DNA of 64,000 nt from a bacterium (GCA_003252295.1 QKEV01000013.1:25920-89919); one strand, 5' to 3'; positions 42,833-55,692 are shown, counted from the first letter of the stretch. The notes: generated by a model not told the origin, from the letters alone. Translations and numbers: made by a program.

Positions 42833-43057
42833 CTACATTCTCAACAAATCAATTTTTTCAAACCGCTTTACCATCTTTCCATCTATTTCTTTTTCATCAA
42901 AAAACATATCCTTGGGTCGCACCCACATACCCTCTTCTCCGTAGAGTGCTTTGTACAGAATCAATTCTTCAAGTGTTTCTGAATGCTTCACCAAACCCAA
43001 CACCTCATACTCACCGCCTTTAAAATGTCTGTATTTTCCTAGTAGATCTGAATCCAT
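42833..43057 (-). CDS. DUF1653-family small protein
   Basis: 74 aa; YRHFKGGEY...HSETLEELILYKALY...WVRP pattern. Confidence 0.6.
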   Translation of the reverse strand: MDSDLLGKYRHFKGGEYEVLGLVKHSETLEELILYKALYGEEGMWVRPKDMFFDEKEIDGKMVKRFEKIDLLRM

Positions 43058-43155
43058 AAAACCTTCTTTAAGTTATATGTAAGCAGTATAGCAAGAATAT
43101 GTTGCTAGGGTCTTGAAAAAACAACCTGTTTGTGTCACAATTGCGCAACATGTAT

Positions 43156-43230
43156 GGTGGCTGTAGCTCAGTTGGTAGAGCTCTCGGTTGTGGTCCGAGC
43201 GGTCGCAGGTTCGAACCCTGTCAGCCACCC
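43156..43230 (+). tRNA. tRNA-His (anticodon GTG) with encoded G-1; no encoded CCA
   Basis: Cloverleaf folded by hand: 8-bp acceptor including G-1, D arm GCTC/GAGC, anticodon stem CTCGG/CCGAG with loop TTGTGGT, T loop TTCGAAC. Confidence 0.9.
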
Positions 43231-43237
43231 AGTGATG

Positions 43238-43270
43238 AAAAAGAACTCCTTACATAAGGAGTTCTTTTTT
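43238..43270 (+). terminator. Rho-independent terminator after tRNA-His
   Basis: aagaactcctta-cat-aaggagttctt followed by TTTTTTG. Confidence 0.7.
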
Positions 43271-43370
43271 GTCACTATGGTGTTTTACTGTCTGGGTTCG
43301 AACCGTAGGACTAACGTTTACACAGAGCGAAGCGACAATGTAAACGTTGACCTCGACCGTAGGGAGAGGC

Positions 43371-43388
43371 GAACCCTGTCAGCCACCA
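43371..43388 (+). repeat. Displaced direct copy of the tRNA-His 3' end (cgaaccctgtcagccacc), 140 nt downstream of the gene
   Basis: 18/18 nt identity to 43212..43229. Confidence 0.7.
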
Positions 43389-43393
43389 ACACC

Positions 43394-43575
43394 AAAGAGG
43401 TGCAATGCTTATCGCATTACACCTCTTGGTATTACTGGTCACCCGTCATTAAATATTATATTTGTTTACTGTTGGAGGACTTTCACTGCTCACTCTCCGC
43501 CAACTGGCGGATCGTTGCGCTCACGAAACCCACAGTTTCGTGTACTTCCTCCACGGGGAAACACCCAGTTTCCCC
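43394..43575 (+). other. Hairpin-rich non-coding segment between tRNA-His and tRNA-Leu (candidate small structured RNA / attenuator array)
   Basis: Four hairpins: agaggtgcaatgc-ttatc-gcattacacctct, ccgcc-aact-ggcgg, cacgaaac-ccaca-gtttcgtg, cggggaaac-accca-gtttccccg. The last two share a GAAAC-N5-GTTTC core. Confidence 0.35.
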
Positions 43576-43614
43576 GACCCCCTTTCTGGTTCAAGTCCTC
43601 ACAACACACCAAAA

Positions 43615-43648
43615 CAAAAAAGATCTAGGAAGAACCTAGATCTTTTTT
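43615..43648. terminator. Bidirectional terminator hairpin downstream of tRNA-Leu
   Basis: aaaaaagatctagg-aaga-acctagatctttttt. Confidence 0.65.
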
Positions 43649-43654
43649 GTTTTG

Positions 43655-43738
43655 TGCGCGGAAGAGGACTTGAACCTCCAAGGGATTGCTCCCATACGCC
43701 CCTCAAGCGTACGCGTCTACCAGTTTCGCCACCCGCGC
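43655..43738 (-). tRNA. tRNA-Leu (anticodon GAG), long variable arm
   Basis: Minus-strand sequence GCGCGGG TG GCGAAACTGGTAGACGC G TACGC-TTGAGGG-GCGTA, variable arm, GGAGG-TTCAAGT-CCTCT, TCCGCGC, A. Confidence 0.88.
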
Positions 43739-43830
43739 ATGTGAGTATAGATAATACATAGGTATGACCATTTTGTCTATAAAACAAACAAGCGACCATG
43801 TGGTCGCTTGTTTGAGTAAAATATTTTGCT

Positions 43831-44397
43831 TTATTTCTCTTCGGTTGTTGCTTCAGTAGTTTCTTCTGTTTTTTCTTCCTCTTTAGCTTCCTCAGTAACC
43901 TCCTCTACTGCTTTCGTCTCCTCTGCCTTCTTTGCTTCTTCCTCTGCCTTAGCTTGTTCCGCTTCTGCGGCAGCTGCAGCTTCTTCTGCTTCCTTTGCTA
44001 CACGCTCTTTCTCAGCAATATCAGACTCTGTCGCAATACCCATCATTTTTGCTTTACGCATAGCACGACGGATCTCCTTGGTTGCCTTATCTCGAATGTA
44101 GTAGAGTTTTGCACGACGAGCTTTCGTTCGCTTTACAATCTCAATCTTATCAATCATTGGTGAGTACAATGGGAAGGTCTTCTCAACACCAACGCCACTA
44201 GCCACCTTTCGTACGGTAAATGTAGCTCCTGCTTCCGAGCCATGCTTTACCATAAGCACAATACCCTCAAATACCTGAAGGCGTGTCTTTCCCTTTTCAA
44301 TTATTTTCTGTGTTACTCGCACAGTATCTCCTGACTGAATACCAAGCTCTTTTCGGGCTTGTGTGTTCACAGATGAAATGACGGTTTGTTCACTCAT
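43831..44397 (-). CDS. rplS: 50S ribosomal protein L19 with ~90-aa Ala/Glu/Lys-rich C-terminal extension
   Basis: Start set at MSEQTV (44397). L19 core RLQVFEGIVL...TFTVRK...GVGVEKTFPLYSP...RRAKLYYIR. Tail AKEAEEAAAAAEAEQAKAEEEAKKAEE. Confidence 0.9.
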   Translation of the reverse strand: MSEQTVISSVNTQARKELGIQSGDTVRVTQKIIEKGKTRLQVFEGIVLMVKHGSEAGATFTVRKVASGVGVEKTFPLYSPMIDKIEIVKRTKARRAKLYYIRDKATKEIRRAMRKAKMMGIATESDIAEKERVAKEAEEAAAAAEAEQAKAEEEAKKAEETKAVEEVTEEAKEEEKTEETTEATTEEK

Positions 44398-44452
44398 AGT
44401 GCGGGGTACTGTACCACATGGAGTCACGGCTTGCAATAGGTGTAAAGGGTTT

Positions 44453-45172
44453 CTAATCTCTATTGAGCTGTTTTTCAGCAAAGACAAAGTCCTCCGGAAG
44501 TGGCGCTTCCAAGCTCATGTAGGTACCGTTTGGATGGGTAAAAGAAATAGCGCGTGCATGGAGTGCGAGTCGTGTAAAACCTAAGATAGGGTCTTTTTTA
44601 GGTGCATACCGCTCATCGGCTACCACCGGGTGACCTATCGCCTTTGCATGTACACGTATCTGGTGTGTTCTTCCTGTTTTTGGTTCAAATGCCATGTATG
44701 AGAACCCTTCCCCAACTCCAAGTCGGGTAAAGCGGGTTATGGCTTCACGAACCTTCCCTTTCGGCACATGTGTCGTCCATAGACGAAAGTCCTTTTTTGA
44801 CCTACCTATTGGCTTGTCTATGGTTCCCGTAAGATCTTTTACCTCACCATACACAAACGCATGGTAGGTCTTTTGTGTTTCCCTGTTTTTAAACTGATCT
44901 TTCAAAAACAGGAACGTGTCCTGATTTTTCGCAAGTACGAGAATACCACTCGTGTCCTTATCGAGACGATGCACTACACCTGGACGATCTATTACCTCGC
45001 CATTCTGTAAGCACATCTCTTCTCCCACTCCTATCATGCTTGGATGGTTCTCACGAACCCAGTCAGTGAGCACTGTCTCATCACTTCTCCCATCCTCATG
45101 CACAGCAAGCCCTGCAGGTTTGTTCACCGCCAAGATGTCACCGTCCTCATAAACTACAGTAGGCACAAACAT
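44453..45172 (-). CDS. RluA-family 23S/tRNA pseudouridine synthase
   Basis: 239 aa; catalytic Asp motif HRLDKDTSGILVLAK. Confidence 0.9.
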   Translation of the reverse strand: MFVPTVVYEDGDILAVNKPAGLAVHEDGRSDETVLTDWVRENHPSMIGVGEEMCLQNGEVIDRPGVVHRLDKDTSGILVLAKNQDTFLFLKDQFKNRETQKTYHAFVYGEVKDLTGTIDKPIGRSKKDFRLWTTHVPKGKVREAITRFTRLGVGEGFSYMAFEPKTGRTHQIRVHAKAIGHPVVADERYAPKKDPILGFTRLALHARAISFTHPNGTYMSLEAPLPEDFVFAEKQLNRD

Positions 45173-45173
45173 A

Positions 45174-46226
45174 CTACACGGCTGTTTTTGCCAACGTACC
45201 GGCGGTATCCACCACCTTACGTACTATAGAAGACAATACTTCTTTATCCTCATCATGTATCGAAAGTTTTGTAACACACTTCTTTGCTTGCTCTACATAC
45301 TCCTCTAACTTTCTCTGTGTTGCATCCTTTGCCCCTGCCTCTTCAAAAAGTTGCACCACCTCCCCTACCTCAGAGTCACTGAGCTCTTCTTTTTTTGTAT
45401 AGAGTGATATGAGTTGCTCCCTATTTCCATGTTCCAAGGTGTAGAGCACCGGATATGTTTTCTTCCTTTCATACACATCACCGTACGCTCGTTTTCCTGT
45501 CTCCTCAGTATTACTCCAAACTGACACGAGGTCATCCTTCACCTGGTACGCCATACCGAGTGCCTCTCCATACTCATAGAGTACTGAAACATCTTCCTCG
45601 GGACACTCTGCAGCAACACCTCCTGCTTCGGTTGCAGCACCAACGAGTACCGCAGTCTTCTTTCGTATCATTTCAAAATACCTTTCCTCTGTAACAGAAG
45701 TATCACCAACCTGTTTATCAGTGAGTTCAAAATCAAGGTACTGTCCTTCGCACACCTCGAGAAAATGGTTGTTGAGTGTTTGTGCCGCTTTCGTGCCATG
45801 CACTGAATCAGTATATGCAGCATTGAGTAATGCTCGTGAAGTGAGGAGCAGCTGTGCATCACCGGAATTTATTGCATGAGGAACACCCCAGAGCTTCCAC
45901 ACGGTCTCCTGCCCTCTTCGCATCTCATCATTATCTACAATGTCATCATGCACCAGGGTGAAGTTATGGAACAACTCTATGGCCGCAGCAAGATCAAGTG
46001 CACTCGTTGCACCACCGTACATGTTTGCGGTTAGCAAGAGGAGTGCACTGCGAGTGCGCTTGCCATGCTTTCCTTCTGAAGGAGTTTTGAGATCATTGCT
46101 ATACCCCATGAAGTAACGGAGCATGTGATACATTGGTAAATCTCCTGCTTCCTCAAATAACGTGCGTATTTTTTTGTCTACCAAATCTTTTTCTTTTTGC
46201 AAAGTCTGTATCATGCTATTTTCCAA
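45174..46226 (-). CDS. Polyprenyl (isoprenyl) diphosphate synthase, trans-type
   Basis: 350 aa; FARM LVHDDIVDND; second motif YQVKDDLVS. Confidence 0.85.
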   Translation of the reverse strand: MENSMIQTLQKEKDLVDKKIRTLFEEAGDLPMYHMLRYFMGYSNDLKTPSEGKHGKRTRSALLLLTANMYGGATSALDLAAAIELFHNFTLVHDDIVDNDEMRRGQETVWKLWGVPHAINSGDAQLLLTSRALLNAAYTDSVHGTKAAQTLNNHFLEVCEGQYLDFELTDKQVGDTSVTEERYFEMIRKKTAVLVGAATEAGGVAAECPEEDVSVLYEYGEALGMAYQVKDDLVSVWSNTEETGKRAYGDVYERKKTYPVLYTLEHGNREQLISLYTKKEELSDSEVGEVVQLFEEAGAKDATQRKLEEYVEQAKKCVTKLSIHDEDKEVLSSIVRKVVDTAGTLAKTAV

Positions 46227-46905
46227 AATTCCTTCCTACCCCTTTGTATTCATTAACAATTTCAAGAAACTCTCCTTTCGAAAAAGCCGGCCAGAATGTA
46301 TCTATAAAAAAGAGTTCAGAGTACACACTAGACCAGGTGAGAAAGTTAGAAAGTCGCTTTTTACCACCGGTGCGTATTATCACCTCAGGATCAGGCATAC
46401 AAGCGGTCCAGAGCACCTCACTAAAACCCACCTCATCAACAACATCTTTACCTTCCTTTAAAAGTCTATTTACGCCAGCAAGTATCTCTGCCCTGCCTCC
46501 ATAACTCGCAGCAACCCAAAGATGTTGCACAGCATCAGCTGGGTTTGTGTCATGGAGATTCTGTATGAGCTCTTGTATGTCTTCTGGAAAACGAGCAAGA
46601 TCACCAACAATATGTATGGCACTCCCCTCGTCACGAAGTGTCGCAAGGTCATCCTTCAAAAGCTTTCGCATCATACCCATCAAGTAACCAACCTCATCCT
46701 CCTCGCGTTCCCAGTTTTCAGTTGAAAATGCATACACTACCAAATGGTTGATATTCTCTTCCTTACACCACTCAACTGCTTCCCGAAGTTTCTCATACCC
46801 CTTTCGGTGACCTTCGAGCTTTGGTACACCCTGCTCACGTGCCCAGCGTCGATTACCATCCATGATCATACCCACACAACTGAGGGTGTTATTTGTATCA
46901 CTCAT
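46216..46905 (-). CDS. uppS: Undecaprenyl diphosphate synthase (cis-prenyltransferase)
   Basis: 229 aa; HVGMIMDGNRRWA and ENWER motifs. Confidence 0.9.
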   Translation of the reverse strand: MSDTNNTLSCVGMIMDGNRRWAREQGVPKLEGHRKGYEKLREAVEWCKEENINHLVVYAFSTENWEREEDEVGYLMGMMRKLLKDDLATLRDEGSAIHIVGDLARFPEDIQELIQNLHDTNPADAVQHLWVAASYGGRAEILAGVNRLLKEGKDVVDEVGFSEVLWTACMPDPEVIIRTGGKKRLSNFLTWSSVYSELFFIDTFWPAFSKGEFLEIVNEYKGVGRNFGK

Positions 46906-46913
46906 ACGTTCTT

Positions 46914-47225
46914 TTATCCAATATGTACTACTTTAAAACTGTCGTACTCCCGTGTAGGTTCCCTCCACTCTTCATATAAATTTTTGACACGAGCAGTATC
47001 AGGCCCTACGACAAGATGGTTCCTAAAAACCTTGAGGACACCATACTCTCCTTGAGCAAGTACCTCAACAGAACCGTCCGGAAGATTTGCAACAAAACCA
47101 GTGAGGTTGAGATCGAGAGCCATAGCGTGCGCAAAATTACGATACGAAACACCCTGTACCCGTCCAGTCACAATGCAGTGGAACTCACTTTTTTTATCGC
47201 TCATGTACCCAAAAGAGTACCACAT
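46914..47225 (-). CDS. acyP: Acylphosphatase
   Basis: 103 aa; VxGxVQGVxYR motif in VTGRVQGVSYRNF. Confidence 0.85.
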   Translation of the reverse strand: MWYSFGYMSDKKSEFHCIVTGRVQGVSYRNFAHAMALDLNLTGFVANLPDGSVEVLAQGEYGVLKVFRNHLVVGPDTARVKNLYEEWREPTREYDSFKVVHIG

Positions 47226-47385
47226 TTCCTATTGAAACAACAAAGTGATACATGATTTCAAATGATTTAAATATGGACAAAAAATAAATTTGATTTCTAC
47301 AACACATAACCATGCTTGTAAAGTTTGACTTGGAGCTAACTCCAAGGACTATAGTACTATACGTAATTACATCAAACATAACGTT

Positions 47386-47763
47386 ATGAATATTTCTGAA
47401 GTAAGTAAAAAATACAACATCCCAACCGACACCCTACGGTACTACGAAAAAATGGGGCTCATCCCGAGCGTCAACCGAAGAGAGAGCGGCACAAGGGACT
47501 ACAGTGAAATCGACATCAAATGGGTAGAGTTTATCAAGTGTATGCGCAGTGCCGGTCTACCTGTAAAAGTGCTCAAAGAGTATGTCGACCTGTTCATGCA
47601 GGGAGCAGGGACAAGTAAACGCAGAAAGGAAATACTACTCACCCAGAGAGATGAGCTTGCTGAGAAAATAAAAGAACTAAAGAAAACCCTGAAGATACTC
47701 GATGCAAAAATAGACATCTACGATACTGAGCTACAGCGACACGAGAAAAAACTTAAAAAGTAA
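47386..47763 (+). CDS. MerR-family transcriptional regulator
   Basis: 125 aa; N-terminal wHTH ISEVSKKYNIPTDTLRYYEKMGLI; C-terminal coiled coil. Confidence 0.85.
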   Translation: MNISEVSKKYNIPTDTLRYYEKMGLIPSVNRRESGTRDYSEIDIKWVEFIKCMRSAGLPVKVLKEYVDLFMQGAGTSKRRKEILLTQRDELAEKIKELKKTLKILDAKIDIYDTELQRHEKKLKK

Positions 47764-47831
47764 AACACCATTATTGGTTTCAGTAACATCCACAAATACC
47801 AACTATTACTAGTTAACCAACACAAAAACAA

Positions 47832-48920
47832 ATGAATAAAACCATTCTTACTATTTTGGCAGTCGCTGCTGCCTGCCTACTTATTATTGTTAATTTTAGA
47901 ACCATGACAAACAACACAAAAGCAACAACGGAAACAAAAGAAGTTGACATTGACGGTTTAACTTTTGAACTCAGTGACAACGTTACGGTTGAGCGAGTCG
48001 TATATAAAAATCGCTACGGCATTGAGATTGCCGGTGACATGTATCTCAGTAAAGACTTTGATAAGTCAGAGAAGCACCGAGCACTCATCATCGGTACGCC
48101 ATACGGTGGTGTCAAAGAGCAAGGTGCGGGTATATACGCACAAAACATGGCAGAACGAGGATTTGTGGCAATCACCTTTGACGAATCATACAACGGCGAC
48201 AGTGGTGGTGTGGGAAGTTTTAAAGACGTGTCCTCGCCTGAGATCTTTGTTGAGGACTTTAGCGCAGGTGTAGACTTTCTTGGATCACTACCTTTTGTAG
48301 ATAGAGAAAAGATAGGTGCAATAGGTATTTGTGGTAGTGGAGGTTTTGCTCTCACTGCAGCACAAGTTGATCCGCGCATTAAGGCAGTTGCCACAGCAAG
48401 CATGTATGACATAAGCAGTATGGTGCGAGATGGCTTTGCTTACTCTTTGACCGATGAGGCACGTGAGCAAATGAAAGTACAACTCGCAGAGCAACGATGG
48501 ACAGACTTTGCAAACGGATACTCAGCAGTACCCGAGGGTGGTTGGCCAACTGACGGTCCAGCAGAAACACTTCCTGAAGGACTACCAGAAGTGATGTCAG
48601 AATTCTTCGAGTACTACGGTATGGAGAGAGGATGGCACCCAAACACGATGCCAAACTTTACCTTGACCAGCTCCCTCGCCTTCATGAACTTCCCTCTCAT
48701 GACACACCTAGAGGAGATCTCACCAAGACCAATCCTCTTCATAATGGGAGAAAATGCTCACTCAAGGTACTACACCGAGGAAGCGTACGAGAAGGCTGCT
48801 GAACCAAAGGAACTCGTAGTTGTTCCAGAAGCACGACACATTGACCTCTACGATGGAGGCGACAAGGACTACATTCCATTTGAAAAGATTGACACATTCT
48901 TTAAGGAGAACTTGAAGTAA
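47832..48920 (+). CDS. Secreted/anchored alpha/beta hydrolase, dienelactone-hydrolase-like (Cys nucleophile GxCxSGG)
   Basis: 362 aa; N-terminal hydrophobic anchor; nucleophile elbow IGAIGICGSGGFAL. Confidence 0.55.
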   Translation: MNKTILTILAVAAACLLIIVNFRTMTNNTKATTETKEVDIDGLTFELSDNVTVERVVYKNRYGIEIAGDMYLSKDFDKSEKHRALIIGTPYGGVKEQGAGIYAQNMAERGFVAITFDESYNGDSGGVGSFKDVSSPEIFVEDFSAGVDFLGSLPFVDREKIGAIGICGSGGFALTAAQVDPRIKAVATASMYDISSMVRDGFAYSLTDEAREQMKVQLAEQRWTDFANGYSAVPEGGWPTDGPAETLPEGLPEVMSEFFEYYGMERGWHPNTMPNFTLTSSLAFMNFPLMTHLEEISPRPILFIMGENAHSRYYTEEAYEKAAEPKELVVVPEARHIDLYDGGDKDYIPFEKIDTFFKENLK

Positions 48921-48924
48921 CTAT

Positions 48925-49482
48925 ATGGAAGGTAAGTCTACAAAATTAACAACATGGATAGGTTTGGGAGTACTGTGTGTTGCAATAGTTGTAGTTGCTC
49001 AAGTAGCAAGAAACACTGACAACCACACAAAAGAAAACCTACCTCTCAACCAAATAAAAACAAATACTATGAACAACGAAACAAAACAAGAAGATACTAT
49101 CTTCCCAAGGGGCGACAAGGCACCAAATGCAGTCTTTACCGGCGACGTATACGTAAACATGCTCATACCTGATACTGACGGTGTATACAACACACAAGCA
49201 TACAACGTAGAATTTGAACCAGGTGCACGTACCTTTTGGCACTCACATCCAGGAGGGCAACTCTTGCTTGTGACCGAAGGAGTTGGCTACTACCAGGAAG
49301 AAGGAAAGCCAGCACGCCGTCTCACGAAAGGAGATGTAGTTGAGATTCCTATCAACGTAAAGCACTGGCACGGTGCTGCACCAGACAGTCACTTTACCCA
49401 TATAGGTATGAGTACCAGAGTAGATACTGGACCTGCAGAGTGGCTCGGAGAAGTAACTGATGAGGAGTACAATGCTATATAA
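48925..49482 (+). CDS. Cupin-domain protein with N-terminal membrane anchor
   Basis: 185 aa; cupin motifs WHSHPGGQLLLV and EIPINVKHWHGA. Confidence 0.65.
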   Translation: MEGKSTKLTTWIGLGVLCVAIVVVAQVARNTDNHTKENLPLNQIKTNTMNNETKQEDTIFPRGDKAPNAVFTGDVYVNMLIPDTDGVYNTQAYNVEFEPGARTFWHSHPGGQLLLVTEGVGYYQEEGKPARRLTKGDVVEIPINVKHWHGAAPDSHFTHIGMSTRVDTGPAEWLGEVTDEEYNAI

Positions 49483-49486
49483 GTAA

Positions 49487-50578
49487 GTGATTATTGATAT
49501 GCATTGGTGGAATTTTGTTCTGTTTATAGGGGTTGCATGGGGAGTACTCTTCTCCATGCATTGGGTAGTGTATACACCCATCTCAAGGGTGTATAACGTT
49601 ACCCTTCCCCACTCTTTTCTCGTGTTGAGCTTTTTCTCACTACTCTACTTCCTTGCGAGTATGGTAGTACGTAGTACGGATCATATCGTGGGCACCCTGT
49701 TCTACTACGTTGCTTCAGTATGGCTGGGTGTACTGTTTCTCATGTTCTCAGTACTTCTCGTATACGGACTCGTACACATCACGACTGGATTTGATTCACG
49801 TGTAGTACTCACCGTACTAATTACTGTCACCCTTGGTCTCTCTGTGTACGCACTCGTACAAGGTCGGCAACTAATCACAAAGGAGTACACCGTACCACTT
49901 GAGCACCTCAGTACACCACTACACGTAGTACATCTGTCAGACATCCATGTAGGTACCGTGCATGGAGAAAAGTACCTGCAAGAGGTAGTACAAAAAACAA
50001 ACGCTCTCAATCCTGACCTCATACTCATCACCGGAGATCTCTTTGATGGTTCTGCACCTATTCACACAGAAATGCTCACGGTACTCGACAGCTTTAATGC
50101 ACCTGCATACTTTTCAAACGGCAACCACGAACAGTACGAAGGACTCGACAAGGTACGAAACACACTAGGGACTCTCAAGATGCAACTCTTGGAAAATGAA
50201 CTCATTGAGTACAAGGGTGTGCAGGTTGTAGGGGTAAACGACAGACAGAGTCTACCCCGTGGCACCTCACTCAATGATGTGCTTGATACGTTTACACTCG
50301 ACGGCAACAAACCAACCATACTCATGTACCATTCCCCTGCTGACTGGGAGGTAGCTCGTGCCGCAGGCGTTACCTTCATGCTCTCAGGACACACTCACAA
50401 TGGACAGATATACCCGTTCAACTTACTTGTTCGTGCAGCGTTTCGCAACCTCAACGGTCTCTACGAAGAGCAAGGTTACTATCTTCATATCTCCCCCGGT
50501 ACCGGTACCTGGGGACCACCCATGCGCTTGGGCTCAAGAAACCAAATCACACTTTTAAACTTAGTACCGAAGGAGTAG
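49487..50578 (+). CDS. Membrane-anchored metallophosphoesterase (calcineurin-like)
   Basis: 363 aa; 4-5 N-terminal TM; HLSDIHVG, GDLFDG, GNHE and SGHTHNGQ motifs. Confidence 0.85.
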   Translation: MIIDMHWWNFVLFIGVAWGVLFSMHWVVYTPISRVYNVTLPHSFLVLSFFSLLYFLASMVVRSTDHIVGTLFYYVASVWLGVLFLMFSVLLVYGLVHITTGFDSRVVLTVLITVTLGLSVYALVQGRQLITKEYTVPLEHLSTPLHVVHLSDIHVGTVHGEKYLQEVVQKTNALNPDLILITGDLFDGSAPIHTEMLTVLDSFNAPAYFSNGNHEQYEGLDKVRNTLGTLKMQLLENELIEYKGVQVVGVNDRQSLPRGTSLNDVLDTFTLDGNKPTILMYHSPADWEVARAAGVTFMLSGHTHNGQIYPFNLLVRAAFRNLNGLYEEQGYYLHISPGTGTWGPPMRLGSRNQITLLNLVPKE

Positions 50579-50614
50579 ATCAAAACATCCACCTTTATGG
50601 TGGGTGTTTTGTAT

Positions 50615-50634
50615 TGGTGCGCGTTAAGGGACTC
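50615..50634 (-). repeat. Displaced direct copy of the 3'-terminal 20 nt of tRNA-Val (incl. ACCA), ~140 nt downstream of the gene; an inverted 15-nt copy lies at 50708..50722
   Basis: tggtgcgcgttaagggactc matches 50773..50792 exactly; gagtcccttaacgcg at 50708..50722 is its reverse complement. Confidence 0.7.
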
Positions 50635-50772
50635 TCTCCTTACAGGAGCAGTACAGGTTTCCTGTATTTTAGTTCATTTCATTCCCAAAATACGAGGTAA
50701 CCTCTTCGAGTCCCTTAACGCGGAGAAACACTAACGCCTCCAATACTTATCGTATCGGAGGCGAAGTGTCTC

Positions 50773-50849
50773 TGGTGCGCGTTAAGGGACTCGAACCCCT
50801 GACCCTCTCGGTGTAAACGAGATGCTCTAGCCAACTGAGCTAAACGCGC
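50773..50849 (-). tRNA. tRNA-Val (anticodon TAC), CCA encoded
   Basis: GCGCGTT TA GCTCAGTTGGCTAGAGC A TCTCG-TTTACAC-CGAGA GGGTC AGGGG-TTCGAGT-CCCTT AACGCGC A CCA. Confidence 0.9.
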
Positions 50850-50892
50850 ATATGTATCGAATGAAATACTATCATATTTTACCAAAAAGTCA

Positions 50893-50925
50893 CCTGTGCC
50901 TTCGGAGGGAATCGAACCTCCAAGT
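50893..50925 (-). repeat. Orphan tRNA-Arg 3'-half fragment (T arm + acceptor; 25 nt identical to the intact gene), preceded by a 16-bp-stem hairpin (50926..50968)
   Basis: tgtgccttcggagggaatcgaacc is identical at 50893.. and 51094..; hairpin cactaagcataattg / caattatgctaagtg. Confidence 0.65.
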
Positions 50926-51053
50926 CACTAAGCATAATTGTTCGCTCCGACTCCAATTATGCTAAGTGCTCGTAGGCTCGGCTCGGCGCTTACTCGTGCC
51001 TTAGCACGCGCGCCTGCGCCCGGTTCGATTCCCACACAAAACAGCAAGCAGCA

Positions 51054-51088
51054 AAAATTCCTAACCTTACATAAGGTTAGGAATTTTT
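51054..51088. terminator. Bidirectional terminator hairpin next to tRNA-Arg; same 'ccttacataagg' core as the tRNA-His terminator
   Basis: aaaaattcctaacctta-cat-aaggttaggaattttt. Confidence 0.65.
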
Positions 51089-51095
51089 GCCACTG

Positions 51096-51167
51096 TGCCT
51101 TCGGAGGGAATCGAACCCCCATCTAGGGCTTAGAACACCCCAGCTTTATCCATTAAGCTACGAAGGC
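51096..51167 (-). tRNA. tRNA-Arg (anticodon TCT), no encoded CCA
   Basis: GCCTTCG TA GCTTAATGGATAAAGC T GGGGT-GTTCTAA-GCCCT AGAT GGGGG-TTCGATT-CCCTC CGAAGGC A; G-U pairs at the ends of the anticodon stem. Confidence 0.85.
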
Positions 51168-51322
51168 AAAACTTGTATACATATACCTGTGTCTTTTTTG
51201 AATATTATCCGTAGGTGTTCTAAGCAAGCTTATCTCCCTACGGGAGCTGTACACCTTTTGGATATTTCTGTTCACAAGTTCCAGAAATACCTCAAAAGGT
51301 CTTGCGAACGTGGCTTAAGCAC

Positions 51323-51356
51323 GTTCTCACACCCCAGCTTTATCCATTAAGCTACG
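51323..51356 (-). repeat. Orphan copy of the tRNA-Arg 5' half (acceptor + D arm + anticodon-stem 5' side; 34 nt identical)
   Basis: caccccagctttatccattaagctacgaaggcaa occurs at 51136.. and 51323.. Confidence 0.65.
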
Positions 51357-51407
51357 AAGGCAATAGTCGAAGTATACACTACCGCAAGTACACGATTCAT
51401 TCAAGAA

Positions 51408-51845
51408 CTATTCAGTAGTTTCTAATCCGCTCTCTGTTACTTCCTCAGTAACATTACCTTCATCTTCAGTACCATCTTCAGCACTCCCATCTTCCTCAAT
51501 CTCTGATTCCATCAAACCAAGATCAAAAGGTTGAGGAGGAACACTTACTGTTTCAATAAAAGAATTTTCTTTGGCACGGTATTGGTCAACTATATACTTT
51601 ACTCCATCTTTATTAGGGATGGCTGTTTGTATCTGATGCACCTCTTCTGAAAGTGCTTTTTCCCTCATAAGCTCCAGTGTAAAGTACACGTAAACACCTA
51701 TACCAACAAACACCAAACCAACCAGTAACACGAACACAAGTATCATGCGCCAATGTTTTGCAACAGGAAAATCATCACCTATGATCTTCTTATGTTTAAA
51801 GACCTCCTGTATCTTCTGTATGATTTTTTTATACTTGTTTTCCAT
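51408..51845 (-). CDS. Small membrane protein with acidic C-terminal tail (possible pilus-assembly accessory)
   Basis: 145 aa; one TM; E/D/T-rich tail; sits just downstream of the pilMNO-like genes. Confidence 0.35.
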   Translation of the reverse strand: MENKYKKIIQKIQEVFKHKKIIGDDFPVAKHWRMILVFVLLVGLVFVGIGVYVYFTLELMREKALSEEVHQIQTAIPNKDGVKYIVDQYRAKENSFIETVSVPPQPFDLGLMESEIEEDGSAEDGTEDEGNVTEEVTESGLETTE

Positions 51846-55604: not shown

Positions 55605-55692
55605 GGAGGGGTGGCTGAGAGGTCGAAAGCACCTGTCTTGAAAACAGGCGTATCGAGAGGTACCGTGGGTTCGAATCCCACCCCCTCCGCCA
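55605..55692 (+). tRNA. tRNA-Ser (anticodon TGA), CCA encoded
   Basis: GGAGGGG TG GCTGAGAGGTCGAAAGC A CCTGT-CTTGAAA-ACAGG, long variable arm, GGGTTCGAATCCC, CCCCTCC G CCA. Confidence 0.9.

What the first reader, a model, noticed from the sequence alone, without database searches (positions are those of the whole stretch)
50580..51400. Patchwork of tRNA-Val and tRNA-Arg fragments around the intact genes
tRNA-Val is followed, 140 nt on, by an exact 20-nt copy of its 3' end (50615..50634). An inverted 15-nt copy lies between them at 50708..50722. tRNA-Arg(TCT) is flanked on both sides by orphan halves of itself: a 34-nt 5' half at 51323..51356 and a 25-nt 3' half at 50893..50925 next to a 16-bp hairpin. 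An inverted copy of its anticodon arm lies within a ccgtagg/cctacgg stem near 51215..51250. With the tRNA-His case, three tRNAs in this window carry the same displaced-end signature. That points to repeated site-specific recombination at tRNA genes or a tRNA-derived miniature element. The palindromic terminators next to tRNA-His and tRNA-Arg also share a 'ccttacataagg' core.
Basis: seen in the sequence. Interest (0 to 1): 0.55.

Follow-up and report, generated by a model that had tools for sequence, protein, structure and literature searches.

The report
Folded insertion cassettes flanking tRNA genes
The tRNA fragments are real: they form the closing stems of small, conserved, folded non-coding cassettes, absent from Rfam 15 and the papers searched, that sit beside most tRNA genes in this candidate-phyla-radiation bacterium and its relatives.

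Summary
The repeats exist and are far beyond chance (longest direct repeat 35 nt, longest inverted 18 nt; maxima 14 and 13 in 300 shuffles). They are organised. Read in the tRNA's direction, four of the window's five tRNAs (Val, Arg, His, Leu) are followed by: predicted terminator hairpin; reverse-complement copy of the tRNA starting at the T-loop (B); a 70-150 nt module; a direct copy of the tRNA 3' end (A); second terminator. tRNA-Arg also has a mirror-image unit upstream, broken in the anticodon loop.

B pairs with A and closes the module. The same modules occur beside Val, Arg, Met, Trp, Tyr, Gly and Asp tRNA genes in at least five other Patescibacteria assemblies. The commonest type has 42 base pairs, 24 with compensatory changes. 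All 13 strong model hits lie downstream of, and co-oriented with, a tRNA. Nothing matched in Rfam 15, phage, plasmid or viral collections, and no recombinase gene lies nearby.

Best reading (about 0.4): non-autonomous cassettes that recombine at tRNA loops, regenerate the gene, and use a folded single-stranded site, analogous to integron attC or CTX attP. Main rival (about 0.25): a small RNA matured with the tRNA. Function is untested.

The parts
50773..50849 (-). tRNA-Val(TAC), intact, CCA encoded
   Evidence: ARAGORN; Rfam tRNA 69.1 bits
50723..50772 (-). Hairpin after tRNA-Val (predicted intrinsic terminator 50763-50735 inside a longer stem)
50705..50722 (-). B(Val): reverse-complement copy of the tRNA-Val T-loop through the acceptor 3' strand (18 nt against the gene, 15 nt against A)
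   Evidence: (I3, I1)
50635..50704 (-). Type-1 module: long AT-rich hairpin with loop GGAAUGAAAUGAA, then small hairpin CUCCUGUAAGGAG
50615..50634 (-). A(Val): exact direct copy of the last 20 nt of tRNA-Val including CCA. It pairs with B(Val) to close the unit.
   Evidence: (D3)
50589..50606 (.). Bidirectional terminator hairpin after the Val unit, shared with the convergent phosphoesterase gene
51095..51167 (-). tRNA-Arg(TCT), intact
51047..51094 (-). Terminator hairpin after tRNA-Arg (20-bp stem, core CCTTACATAAGG)
   Evidence: (I2)
51022..51033 (-). B(Arg 3'): reverse-complement copy of the tRNA-Arg T-loop region
   Evidence: (I6, I7)
50923..51021 (-). Type-2 module. Arm 1 holds the conserved core GCGC-G-CGUGC-NNNN-GCACG-AGUAA-GCGC. 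Arm 2 is the hairpin 50926-50968 with a conserved U.U mismatch and a GAGCGAA loop.
   Evidence: model R1 hit at 50896-51036, 127.6 bits
50894..50922 (-). A(Arg 3'): direct copy of the tRNA-Arg T-arm, acceptor 3' strand and 3 flanking nt (28 of 29 matches)
   Evidence: D2
51214..51225 (-). B'(Arg 5'): reverse-complement copy of tRNA-Arg positions 29-40 (anticodon arm), spanning the 33/34 break point
   Evidence: (I8)
51226..51328 (-). Type-1 module of the upstream (mirror-image) Arg unit, in the same orientation relative to tRNA transcription as the Val module
51329..51363 (-). A'(Arg 5'): exact direct copy of tRNA-Arg positions 1-33 plus 2 upstream nt
   Evidence: (D1)
43288..43390 (+). tRNA-His unit: B at 43294-43304, a type-1-like module, A at 43370-43387. 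It follows tRNA-His (43157-43230) and its terminator (43231-43276).
43448..43600 (-). tRNA-Leu unit: B at 43588-43600, a third module type with three hairpins, and a weak 8-nt A at 43475-43482. It follows tRNA-Leu (43654-43738) and its terminator (43654-43610).

Best explanation
The region holds three copies (five in the whole window) of a family of small non-coding cassettes that live on the flanks of tRNA genes in Patescibacteria.

Layout of a 3' cassette, read in the tRNA's direction:
1. a terminator hairpin;
2. B, a reverse-complement copy of the tRNA that starts at T54 of the T-loop and runs toward the 3' end;
3. a conserved folded module of about 70-150 nt;
4. A, a direct copy of the tRNA from the T-loop to its 3' end, followed by a second terminator.

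A 5' cassette is the mirror image, with its break in the anticodon loop between positions 33 and 34.

Inferred mechanism:
- The cassette is, or was, an insertion that recombines with the tRNA gene inside a loop.
- The gene's own segment and A are the two junctions of that insertion. The tRNA is regenerated and its old end is displaced.
- B pairs with A (and with the gene's own end). In single-stranded form the cassette therefore folds into a stem that mimics the duplex target and is capped by the module.
- This is the logic of integron attC sites and of the folded CTX-phage attP.
- Cassettes lack any gene of their own, so they must depend on a recombinase or on host recombination supplied in trans.
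- They accumulate in tandem and exchange between tRNA loci.

Shown here: the anatomy, the conserved fold, the strict linkage to tRNA genes, and the turnover between loci. Inferred: insertion by recombination, the single-stranded DNA form, and trans mobilisation.
For: 1. Anatomy. It is repeated at four of the window's five tRNAs and at 8 of 10 tRNAs in the three loci that were not chosen for carrying a module: the window, L001 and L003.

2. Break points.
- B always begins at T-loop position 52-55.
- A begins 0-6 nt further on and runs to the tRNA end. In tRNA-Arg it continues 3 nt beyond the end, so it was copied from DNA, not from mature tRNA.
- The tRNA gene is always intact.

3. Same module next to different tRNAs.
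- A 39-nt core is 95% identical between the window's Arg unit and the L001 Val unit.
- The core pattern found units beside Met, Arg(TCG), Trp, Tyr and Gly(GCC) tRNA genes.
- Model R1 added units beside Asp, Gly(TCC) and a second Met gene.

4. Conserved fold. There are 42 pairs, 24 of them with compensatory changes. 92.7% of cells are paired, against 33-40% when partners are slid, and 0 of 500 shuffles reach this.

5. Turnover.
- The orthologous Val locus has a type-1 module in the window and a type-2 module in L001.
- The Arg 5' site is filled in the window. In L001 and L005 it is an empty A'/B' hairpin.

6. Units move as wholes.
- L008 unit E2 has a perfect 12-bp B:A stem from a T-arm unlike the adjacent tRNA-Tyr.
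- The unit beside tRNA-Gly(TCC) in L005 carries B and A of tRNA-Gly(GCC) type.
- L006 unit X keeps a Gly-type B remnant beside tRNA-Trp.
- Tandem arrays occur in L006 and L008.

7. Transcriptional insulation. Predicted terminators lie on both sides of each unit and no sigma-70-like promoter precedes any unit. This fits a DNA-level element better than an expressed gene.

8. Parallel with attC. For attC sites, structure rather than sequence is conserved, and G:T mispairs are enriched on the recombining strand (PMC5027507). Here G:T is 18 against A:C 10 in paired cells, and the predicted folding energy is lower on the tRNA-sense strand in 9 of 12 units.
Against: - No recombinase, transposase or HUH enzyme was found near any unit.
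- The one reverse transcriptase nearby (L011) belongs to a family whose other members have no tRNA or unit beside them.
- No excised form and no strain-level presence/absence polymorphism could be observed. The only multi-sample loci were identical.
- Copies within one genome are diverged, with compensatory changes rather than near-identity, so there has been no recent burst of transposition.
- A 160-200 bp circle is very small for a double-stranded recombination substrate.
- The G:T versus A:C bias is weak.
- All units are co-oriented with their tRNA. An RNA co-transcribed with the tRNA would show the same.
Confidence: 0.4

Rival explanations
1. The units are genes for a small structured RNA of about 100-160 nt. 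It would be made by read-through from the tRNA promoter and trimmed by tRNA-processing enzymes. The B:A stem imitates the acceptor/T helix of the neighbouring tRNA. The RNA would serve the cell, or the tRNA, in some unknown way, for example as a decoy, a sensor or a processing aid.
For: - Strong covariation in every helix and conserved unpaired nucleotides: CGSAG, AGUAA, CGAG, and AACGAA in the arm-2 loop.
- All 13 strong model hits are on the tRNA's strand and downstream of it.
- The type-1 module keeps the same orientation relative to transcription in both the 3' (Val) and 5' (Arg) units, although the order of A and B is reversed.
- Copies within a genome are old and diverged yet still fold.
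- In L001 Val the stem ends exactly like an acceptor stem, with a free ACCA tail.
Against: - A predicted intrinsic terminator with a U-run stands between each tRNA and its unit, and no promoter-like site precedes the unit.
- The stem does not consistently mimic an acceptor end. In L003 the CCA is fully paired. In the window's Arg unit B pairs only with the T-loop. In L011 and L012 A is truncated or foreign.
- B pairs with the tRNA's own 3' end at least as well as with A in every unit proximal to a tRNA, which would compete with tRNA folding in a shared transcript.
- Units with stems from a different tRNA sit beside non-cognate tRNAs.
Confidence: 0.25
2. The fragments are decayed scars (attL/attR remnants) of ordinary prophages or genomic islands. 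Those elements would have integrated into tRNA genes through tyrosine integrases and were later deleted.
For: - The direct repeats run from the T-loop or anticodon loop to the end of the tRNA, with the gene restored.
- L005 tRNA-Pro shows a plain partial 3' duplication with no B and no module.
Against: - Dead scars would not keep a fold through 24 compensatory pair changes.
- Scars would not recur at a uniform size of about 160-200 bp beside most tRNAs, nor share one module across eight or more tRNA species.
- Scars do not explain the inverted copy B.
- No integrase or phage genes are nearby.
Confidence: 0.08
3. The direct-inverted-direct triplication of tRNA ends is a by-product of replication template switching. 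Switching would occur at the terminator hairpin and at the palindromic T-loop box TTCGAA (and at the anticodon stem-loop). The modules would be separate small elements that later colonised the centres of these palindromes.
For: - B lies at a roughly symmetrical distance across the terminator hairpin from the tRNA end, forming a giant palindrome.
- The junctions fall in TCGA, which is its own reverse complement.
- Empty A'/B' palindromes without a module exist in L001 and L005.
Against: - The second terminator is never a copy of the first.
- The model does not explain why nearly every palindrome carries a module, always in one orientation.
- It does not explain why whole units with non-cognate stems occur beside other tRNAs.
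Confidence: 0.12
4. The similarities are due to chance or to an assembly artefact.
For: Short-read assemblies do break inside this region.
Against: - The shuffle test rules out chance.
- The same architecture appears in independent assemblies from NCBI, JGI and ENA, in different organisms.
- Covariation supports a real conserved fold.
Confidence: 0.01

Closest known systems
Integron attC sites and cassette arrays
   Same: - Imperfect palindromes in which structure, not sequence, is conserved.
- An outer stem made of a site and its inverted copy, with conserved unpaired bases and mismatches and a variable, sometimes branched, terminal structure.
- Tandem arrays in a single orientation downstream of a fixed primary site.
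- More G:T mispairs on one strand (PMC5027507).
   Different: - No RYYYAAC/GTTRRRY boxes.
- The stem is locus-specific and copies a tRNA end.
- The role of attI would be played by the T-loop of a tRNA gene.
- The cargo is only a terminator hairpin.
- No IntI-like gene is adjacent.
CTX-phage type folded single-stranded attP (own knowledge of the Vibrio cholerae XerCD-dependent integration literature, not checked here)
   Same: Two inverted copies of the target sequence, separated by a spacer, fold to imitate the duplex chromosomal target. After integration the layout is site, spacer, inverted site, element, site.
   Different: The target here is a tRNA gene rather than dif. The element is 100-200 nt with no genes. 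No Xer involvement is shown.
Integrase-mediated integration into tRNA genes (anticodon-loop and T-loop sublocations; own knowledge of the literature, not checked here)
   Same: Direct repeats run from the loop to the tRNA end, and the tRNA is regenerated.
   Different: There is no integrase and no kilobase-scale cargo. There is an extra inverted copy, a conserved folded interior, and 5'-side duplications.
REP/REPIN elements and IS200/IS605-derived miniature elements (own knowledge, not checked here)
   Same: Small extragenic hairpin elements with conserved mismatches, located after terminators, presumed mobilised in trans as single-stranded DNA. A GTAGG-like motif recurs in type-1 units.
   Different: Those families have the same ends in all copies, no target duplication and no link to tRNA. 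No RAYT or TnpA gene was seen here.
Retron non-coding RNA (msr-msd)
   Same: A closing stem of inverted repeats around short stem-loops plus one long hairpin, with a similar overall size.
   Different: No adjacent reverse transcriptase. The only reverse transcriptase found nearby is coincidental. The stems are tRNA copies.

Membership tests
Any Rfam 15 RNA family | Covariance-model match at or near the family's gathering score | tested here: not met
   Only tRNA hits at gathering threshold. With E up to 5 over 42900-51600, nothing covers the units.
tRNA-targeting integrative element (tyrosine integrase) | Direct repeat of the tRNA segment from a loop to the gene end, with an intact gene at one junction | tested here: met
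   Val 20 nt, Arg 29 nt and 35 nt, His 18 nt.
tRNA-targeting integrative element (tyrosine integrase) | Integrase gene and cargo genes between the repeats | tested here: not met
   The repeats are 157-200 nt apart with no ORF between them. No integrase among the window or locus ORFs scanned.
Integron attC | Terminal R boxes RYYYAAC ... GTTRRRY | tested here: not met
   The stems are tRNA-specific. Only the Val stem contains GTTAAGG/CCTTAAC, and in the reverse order (definition from PMC5027507).
Integron attC | Conserved folded structure with unpaired features despite variable sequence | tested here: met
   a conserved U.U mismatch in arm 2, a bulged G, and an AGUAA internal loop.
Integron attC | IntI integrase and attI nearby, or recombination by IntI | tested here: not met
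   No tyrosine recombinase in the flanks scanned. Recombination activity cannot be tested with these tools.
MITE | Terminal inverted repeats shared by all copies, plus a short fixed-length target duplication | tested here: not met
   The inverted arms differ at every locus and equal the local tRNA. The duplications are 8-35 nt.
Retron | Reverse transcriptase gene adjacent to the non-coding RNA | tested here: not met
   One of about 10 loci (L011) has a retron-like reverse transcriptase 280 nt upstream of the tRNA. Its homologues in L135-L143 have no tRNA or unit beside them.
Group I intron, or split/permuted tRNA | The tRNA gene is interrupted, so splicing or joining is needed to make the tRNA | tested here: not met
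   ARAGORN and Rfam find complete, uninterrupted tRNAs next to every unit. No intron family hit.
Phage- or plasmid-borne element | Homologous sequence in phage, plasmid or viral contig collections | tested here: not met
   and 78/80: only chance matches or matches to the tRNA part.

The most novel reading that the evidence does not exclude
Patescibacteria carry an integron-like platform in which the T-loop (and anticodon loop) of ordinary tRNA genes acts as the primary recombination site. Tiny gene-less cassettes, each closed by a stem templated on the target tRNA, are captured, stacked and exchanged as folded single strands by an unidentified recombinase acting in trans. This would be a self-programming, structure-specific recombination system aimed at tRNA genes.
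Probability: 0.2. Interest if true: 0.85.

Novelty: new variant of a known kind. Interest (0 to 1): 0.68.

Why it matters
If these units are mobile, they are a new way for selfish DNA to use tRNA genes as safe harbours. They are far smaller than any known integrative element, and their recombination site appears to be copied from the target itself. That would also point to an undiscovered recombinase in the candidate phyla radiation, possibly one that can be re-targeted.

If instead they are RNAs, they form a widespread new class of tRNA-linked structured RNA in genomes otherwise stripped of non-essential DNA. In this window they flank four of five tRNAs.

Either way they explain why short-read assemblies of these organisms break at tRNA loci. 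They also give a covariance model that can be run on complete genomes.

Tried and rejected
- Rfam at gathering and permissive thresholds: no family.
- Phage and plasmid BLAST: only a tRNA-part match in Listeria phages.
- Viral contig scans with three patterns: none, or chance hits only.
- Genome and metagenome scans with the type-2 core gave 2 and 4 true loci. Three metagenome hits (L007, L009, L010) were chance matches in GC-rich or microsatellite DNA.
- Retron idea: a retron-like reverse transcriptase next to the L011 unit looked promising, but its homologues have no tRNA or unit beside them.
- Guide-RNA idea (Cas12/TnpB-like hairpin plus guide): no effector gene anywhere, and the supposed guide is base-paired within the unit.
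- tRNA minihelix mimic with a free CCA end: it holds for L001 Val but fails for L003, the window's Arg unit and L011.
- The L001 tRNA-Val gene ends in CTA while the displaced copy keeps CCA. I first read this as replacement of the gene's 3' end by foreign DNA. It is a point change, because the flanking hairpin foot is homologous to the window's.
- Strand assignment from G:T versus A:C counts: 18 against 10, too weak to decide.
- Strain polymorphism: look-ups of flanking proteins returned only identical or truncated contigs.
- Seven literature searches found no description of such elements.

Full report
**1. Observation**

ARAGORN and Rfam place five tRNA genes in the window:
- His, 43157-43230 (+)
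- Leu, 43654-43738 (-)
- Val(TAC), 50773-50849 (-)
- Arg(TCT), 51095-51167 (-)
- Ser, 55605-55692 (+)

- An exact 20-nt copy of the tRNA-Val 3' end, including CCA, at 50615-50634.
- An 18-nt inverted copy of the same end at 50705-50722.
- An exact 35-nt copy of tRNA-Arg positions 1-33 plus 2 flanking nt at 51329-51363.
- A 29-nt copy (28 of 29) of the tRNA-Arg 3' part at 50894-50922.
- Inverted 12-mers of the tRNA-Arg anticodon arm (51214-51225) and T-loop (51022-51033).

In 300 dinucleotide-preserving shuffles of 50500-51450, the longest direct repeat never exceeded 14 nt and the longest inverted repeat never exceeded 13 nt. The observed values are 35 and 18.

tRNA-Ser has none.

An independent Logan assembly of the same organism reproduces the flanks and breaks only inside the repeats.

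**2. Anatomy**

Read in the direction of each tRNA, the pieces always come in the same order:
1. the tRNA;
2. a hairpin predicted to be an intrinsic terminator;
3. B, a reverse-complement copy of the tRNA that begins at T-loop position 52-55;
4. a module of 70-150 nt;
5. A, a direct copy of the tRNA from the T-loop to its 3' end;
6. a second terminator.

B is a true antisense copy and not the tRNA's own 5' strand. It complements the non-palindromic T-loop. Where the tRNA has a G.U pair, B carries the Watson-Crick partner of the 3' strand (Val and Trp).

A was copied from DNA, because in tRNA-Arg it continues 3 nt past the mature end.

B pairs with A and closes the module. In every unit proximal to a tRNA, B pairs at least as well with the gene's own end across the terminator hairpin.

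tRNA-Arg also has a mirror-image unit upstream: copy of positions 1-33, then a module, then the antisense of positions 29-40. Its break lies between positions 33 and 34.

**3. The modules**

The Val module and the upstream Arg module share the motif TCTCCYTACRGGAGCWGTACA. It occurs only at these two places in the window, and 0 of 100 shuffles gave two matches. They also share a long AT-rich hairpin whose stem differs by compensating changes. I call this type 1. The His unit is a relative.

The module downstream of tRNA-Arg is type 2. Its 39-nt core is 95% identical to the module downstream of tRNA-Val in L001. L001 is a syntenic contig from a relative whose flanking phosphoesterase is 77% identical at the protein level.

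The organism is a Patescibacterium of the Parcubacteria type, judged from the names sources give to homologues.

**4. Relatives**

Exact-pattern scans with the type-2 core found units beside:
- tRNA-Met and tRNA-Arg(TCG) in one genome assembly;
- tRNA-Trp (two organisms), tRNA-Tyr and tRNA-Gly(GCC) in metagenome contigs.

Three other metagenome hits were chance matches.

An alignment of eight units gives a three-way fold:
- P1, the B:A stem;
- arm 1, with the invariant GCACGAGUAAG;
- arm 2, with a conserved U.U mismatch and a GGAACGAAA-like loop.

The fold has 42 pairs, and 24 of them show changes on both sides. 92.7% of cells are paired, against 33-40% when partners are slid by 1-3 columns. 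No shuffle out of 500 reaches the observed values.

A covariance model built from this alignment finds 13 hits with E below 1e-4 in about 113 kb of Patescibacteria DNA. Every hit is downstream of a tRNA and on its strand. New hits lie beside tRNA-Met in L003, tRNA-Gly(TCC) in L005 and the inner unit of L008; a weaker hit lies beside tRNA-Asp in L004.

In the three loci that were not selected through a module (the window, L001, L003), 8 of 10 tRNAs carry a unit.

**5. Signs of turnover**

- The orthologous Val locus carries type 1 in the window and type 2 in L001.
- The Arg 5' site is filled in the window. In L001 it is an empty hairpin of the half-copy and its antisense, and a similar empty palindrome precedes tRNA-Arg(TCG) in L005.
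- L006 and L008 carry two units in tandem.
- The outer L008 unit has a perfect 12-bp stem from a T-arm that is not the neighbouring tRNA-Tyr's.
- The unit beside tRNA-Gly(TCC) in L005 has both arms of tRNA-Gly(GCC) type.
- L006 unit X keeps a Gly-type arm beside tRNA-Trp.
- L012 looks like a recombinant between two such units.
- Simpler forms also exist: a plain partial 3' duplication at tRNA-Pro in L005, and a direct copy split by an insert at tRNA-Met in L003.

**6. What it is not**

- No Rfam family matches.
- No phage, plasmid or viral-contig relative exists.
- The window is ordinary chromosome: ArgRS, SHMT, thymidylate synthase, glycosyltransferases, PilM (by homology) with its two downstream ORFs, and a DEAD-box helicase.
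- Flanks of the other loci are also housekeeping genes.
- A retron-like reverse transcriptase lies 280 nt upstream of tRNA-Gly in L011. Its homologues in nine other loci have neither a tRNA nor a unit nearby, so I treat it as coincidence.
- Seven literature searches found no description of such elements.

**7. Interpretation**

Covariation rules out dead integration scars and pure replication accidents as the whole story. Something selects for the folded single strand.

Two readings remain.

(a) A DNA-level element. Several features have the logic of integron attC sites and of the folded CTX attP:
- units are insulated by terminators on both sides and lack any promoter-like site;
- tRNA ends are duplicated at loop break points;
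- units stack in tandem and exchange between loci;
- the stem plus its inverted copy would imitate the duplex target.

For attC sites, structure rather than sequence is conserved, and G:T mispairs mark the recombining strand (PMC5027507). Here G:T outnumbers A:C by 18 to 10, and the tRNA-sense strand folds better in 9 of 12 units.

(b) An RNA made by read-through and trimmed with the tRNA. The constant co-orientation with the tRNA, and the constant module orientation in both 3' and 5' units, favour this. The terminators and the inconsistent acceptor mimicry count against it.

I put about 0.4 on (a), 0.25 on (b), 0.12 on template switching plus later colonisation by modules, and less than 0.1 on ordinary integrase scars.

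The enzyme, the mobile form and any cellular role are not shown.

**8. Verdict**

No phage or integrase is involved as far as can be seen, and only the stem of the element is tRNA-derived.

The family was not found in Rfam 15 or in the literature searched. It is best filed as a new variant of tRNA-targeted insertion cassettes that use a folded recombination site, with a real possibility that it is a new RNA class.

Noticed in passing
Its interior is a third module type with three GC-rich hairpins, and its direct copy has shrunk to 8 nt (43475-43482).
   Followed up: partly
window 43248-43259 and 51065-51076: The terminators after tRNA-His and tRNA-Arg share the 12-mer CCTTACATAAGG, which occurs nowhere else in 64 kb. 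It lies in opposite orientation relative to the two tRNAs. It also resembles the small type-1 hairpin CUCCYGUARGGAG.
   Followed up: partly
L011 1058-2032 (-); homologues P0122-P0130, loci L135-L143: A family of very short (232-266 aa) retron-like reverse transcriptases in Patescibacteria. One sits 280 nt upstream of a unit-bearing tRNA-Gly. The others have no tRNA or unit nearby, and their own non-coding RNA partner, if any, was not looked for.
   Followed up: partly
L004 3795-4490 (-) and L003 8726-9409 (+): In two unrelated Patescibacteria assemblies, a LAGLIDADG-domain ORF ends immediately upstream of tRNA-Asp (2 nt before it in L004) or overlaps its start (L003). In L004 that tRNA is followed by a unit.
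   Followed up: no
L001 1981-2055 (-) and 1786-1807: The L001 tRNA-Val gene ends in ACTA instead of ACCA, while the displaced downstream copy keeps ACCA. The inner parts of the two hairpins flanking the unit also appear swapped between L001 and the window (CGCCTCC type versus CACCCA type).
   Followed up: partly
L003 6345-6395 (-) and L008 1900-1941 (-): In a subtype of the units, the antisense arm B is itself interrupted by a conserved small hairpin, GGGAGAAAG-stem-loop-CUUUCGUC, placed between the acceptor part and the T-stem part.
   Followed up: no
L004 5249-5497 (-): The tRNA-Met unit is 249 nt long because it carries an internal tandem duplication of about 70 nt (two copies starting CTTCGCCCCTG on the plus strand).
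   Followed up: no
window 43303, 43357, 51209, 51237: The heptamer CCGTAGG, or its complement, occurs 8 times in the window. Four of these lie inside the roughly 600 nt of type-1 units, including both ends of the His module. This recalls the GTAG head of REP elements (own knowledge).
   Followed up: partly
L133 and L134 (Logan, SRR7216773): Short-read contigs of the same organism end inside the Val module (window 50685) and inside the tRNA-Arg 5' half-copy (window 51334). The units therefore fragment assemblies at tRNA loci.
   Followed up: yes
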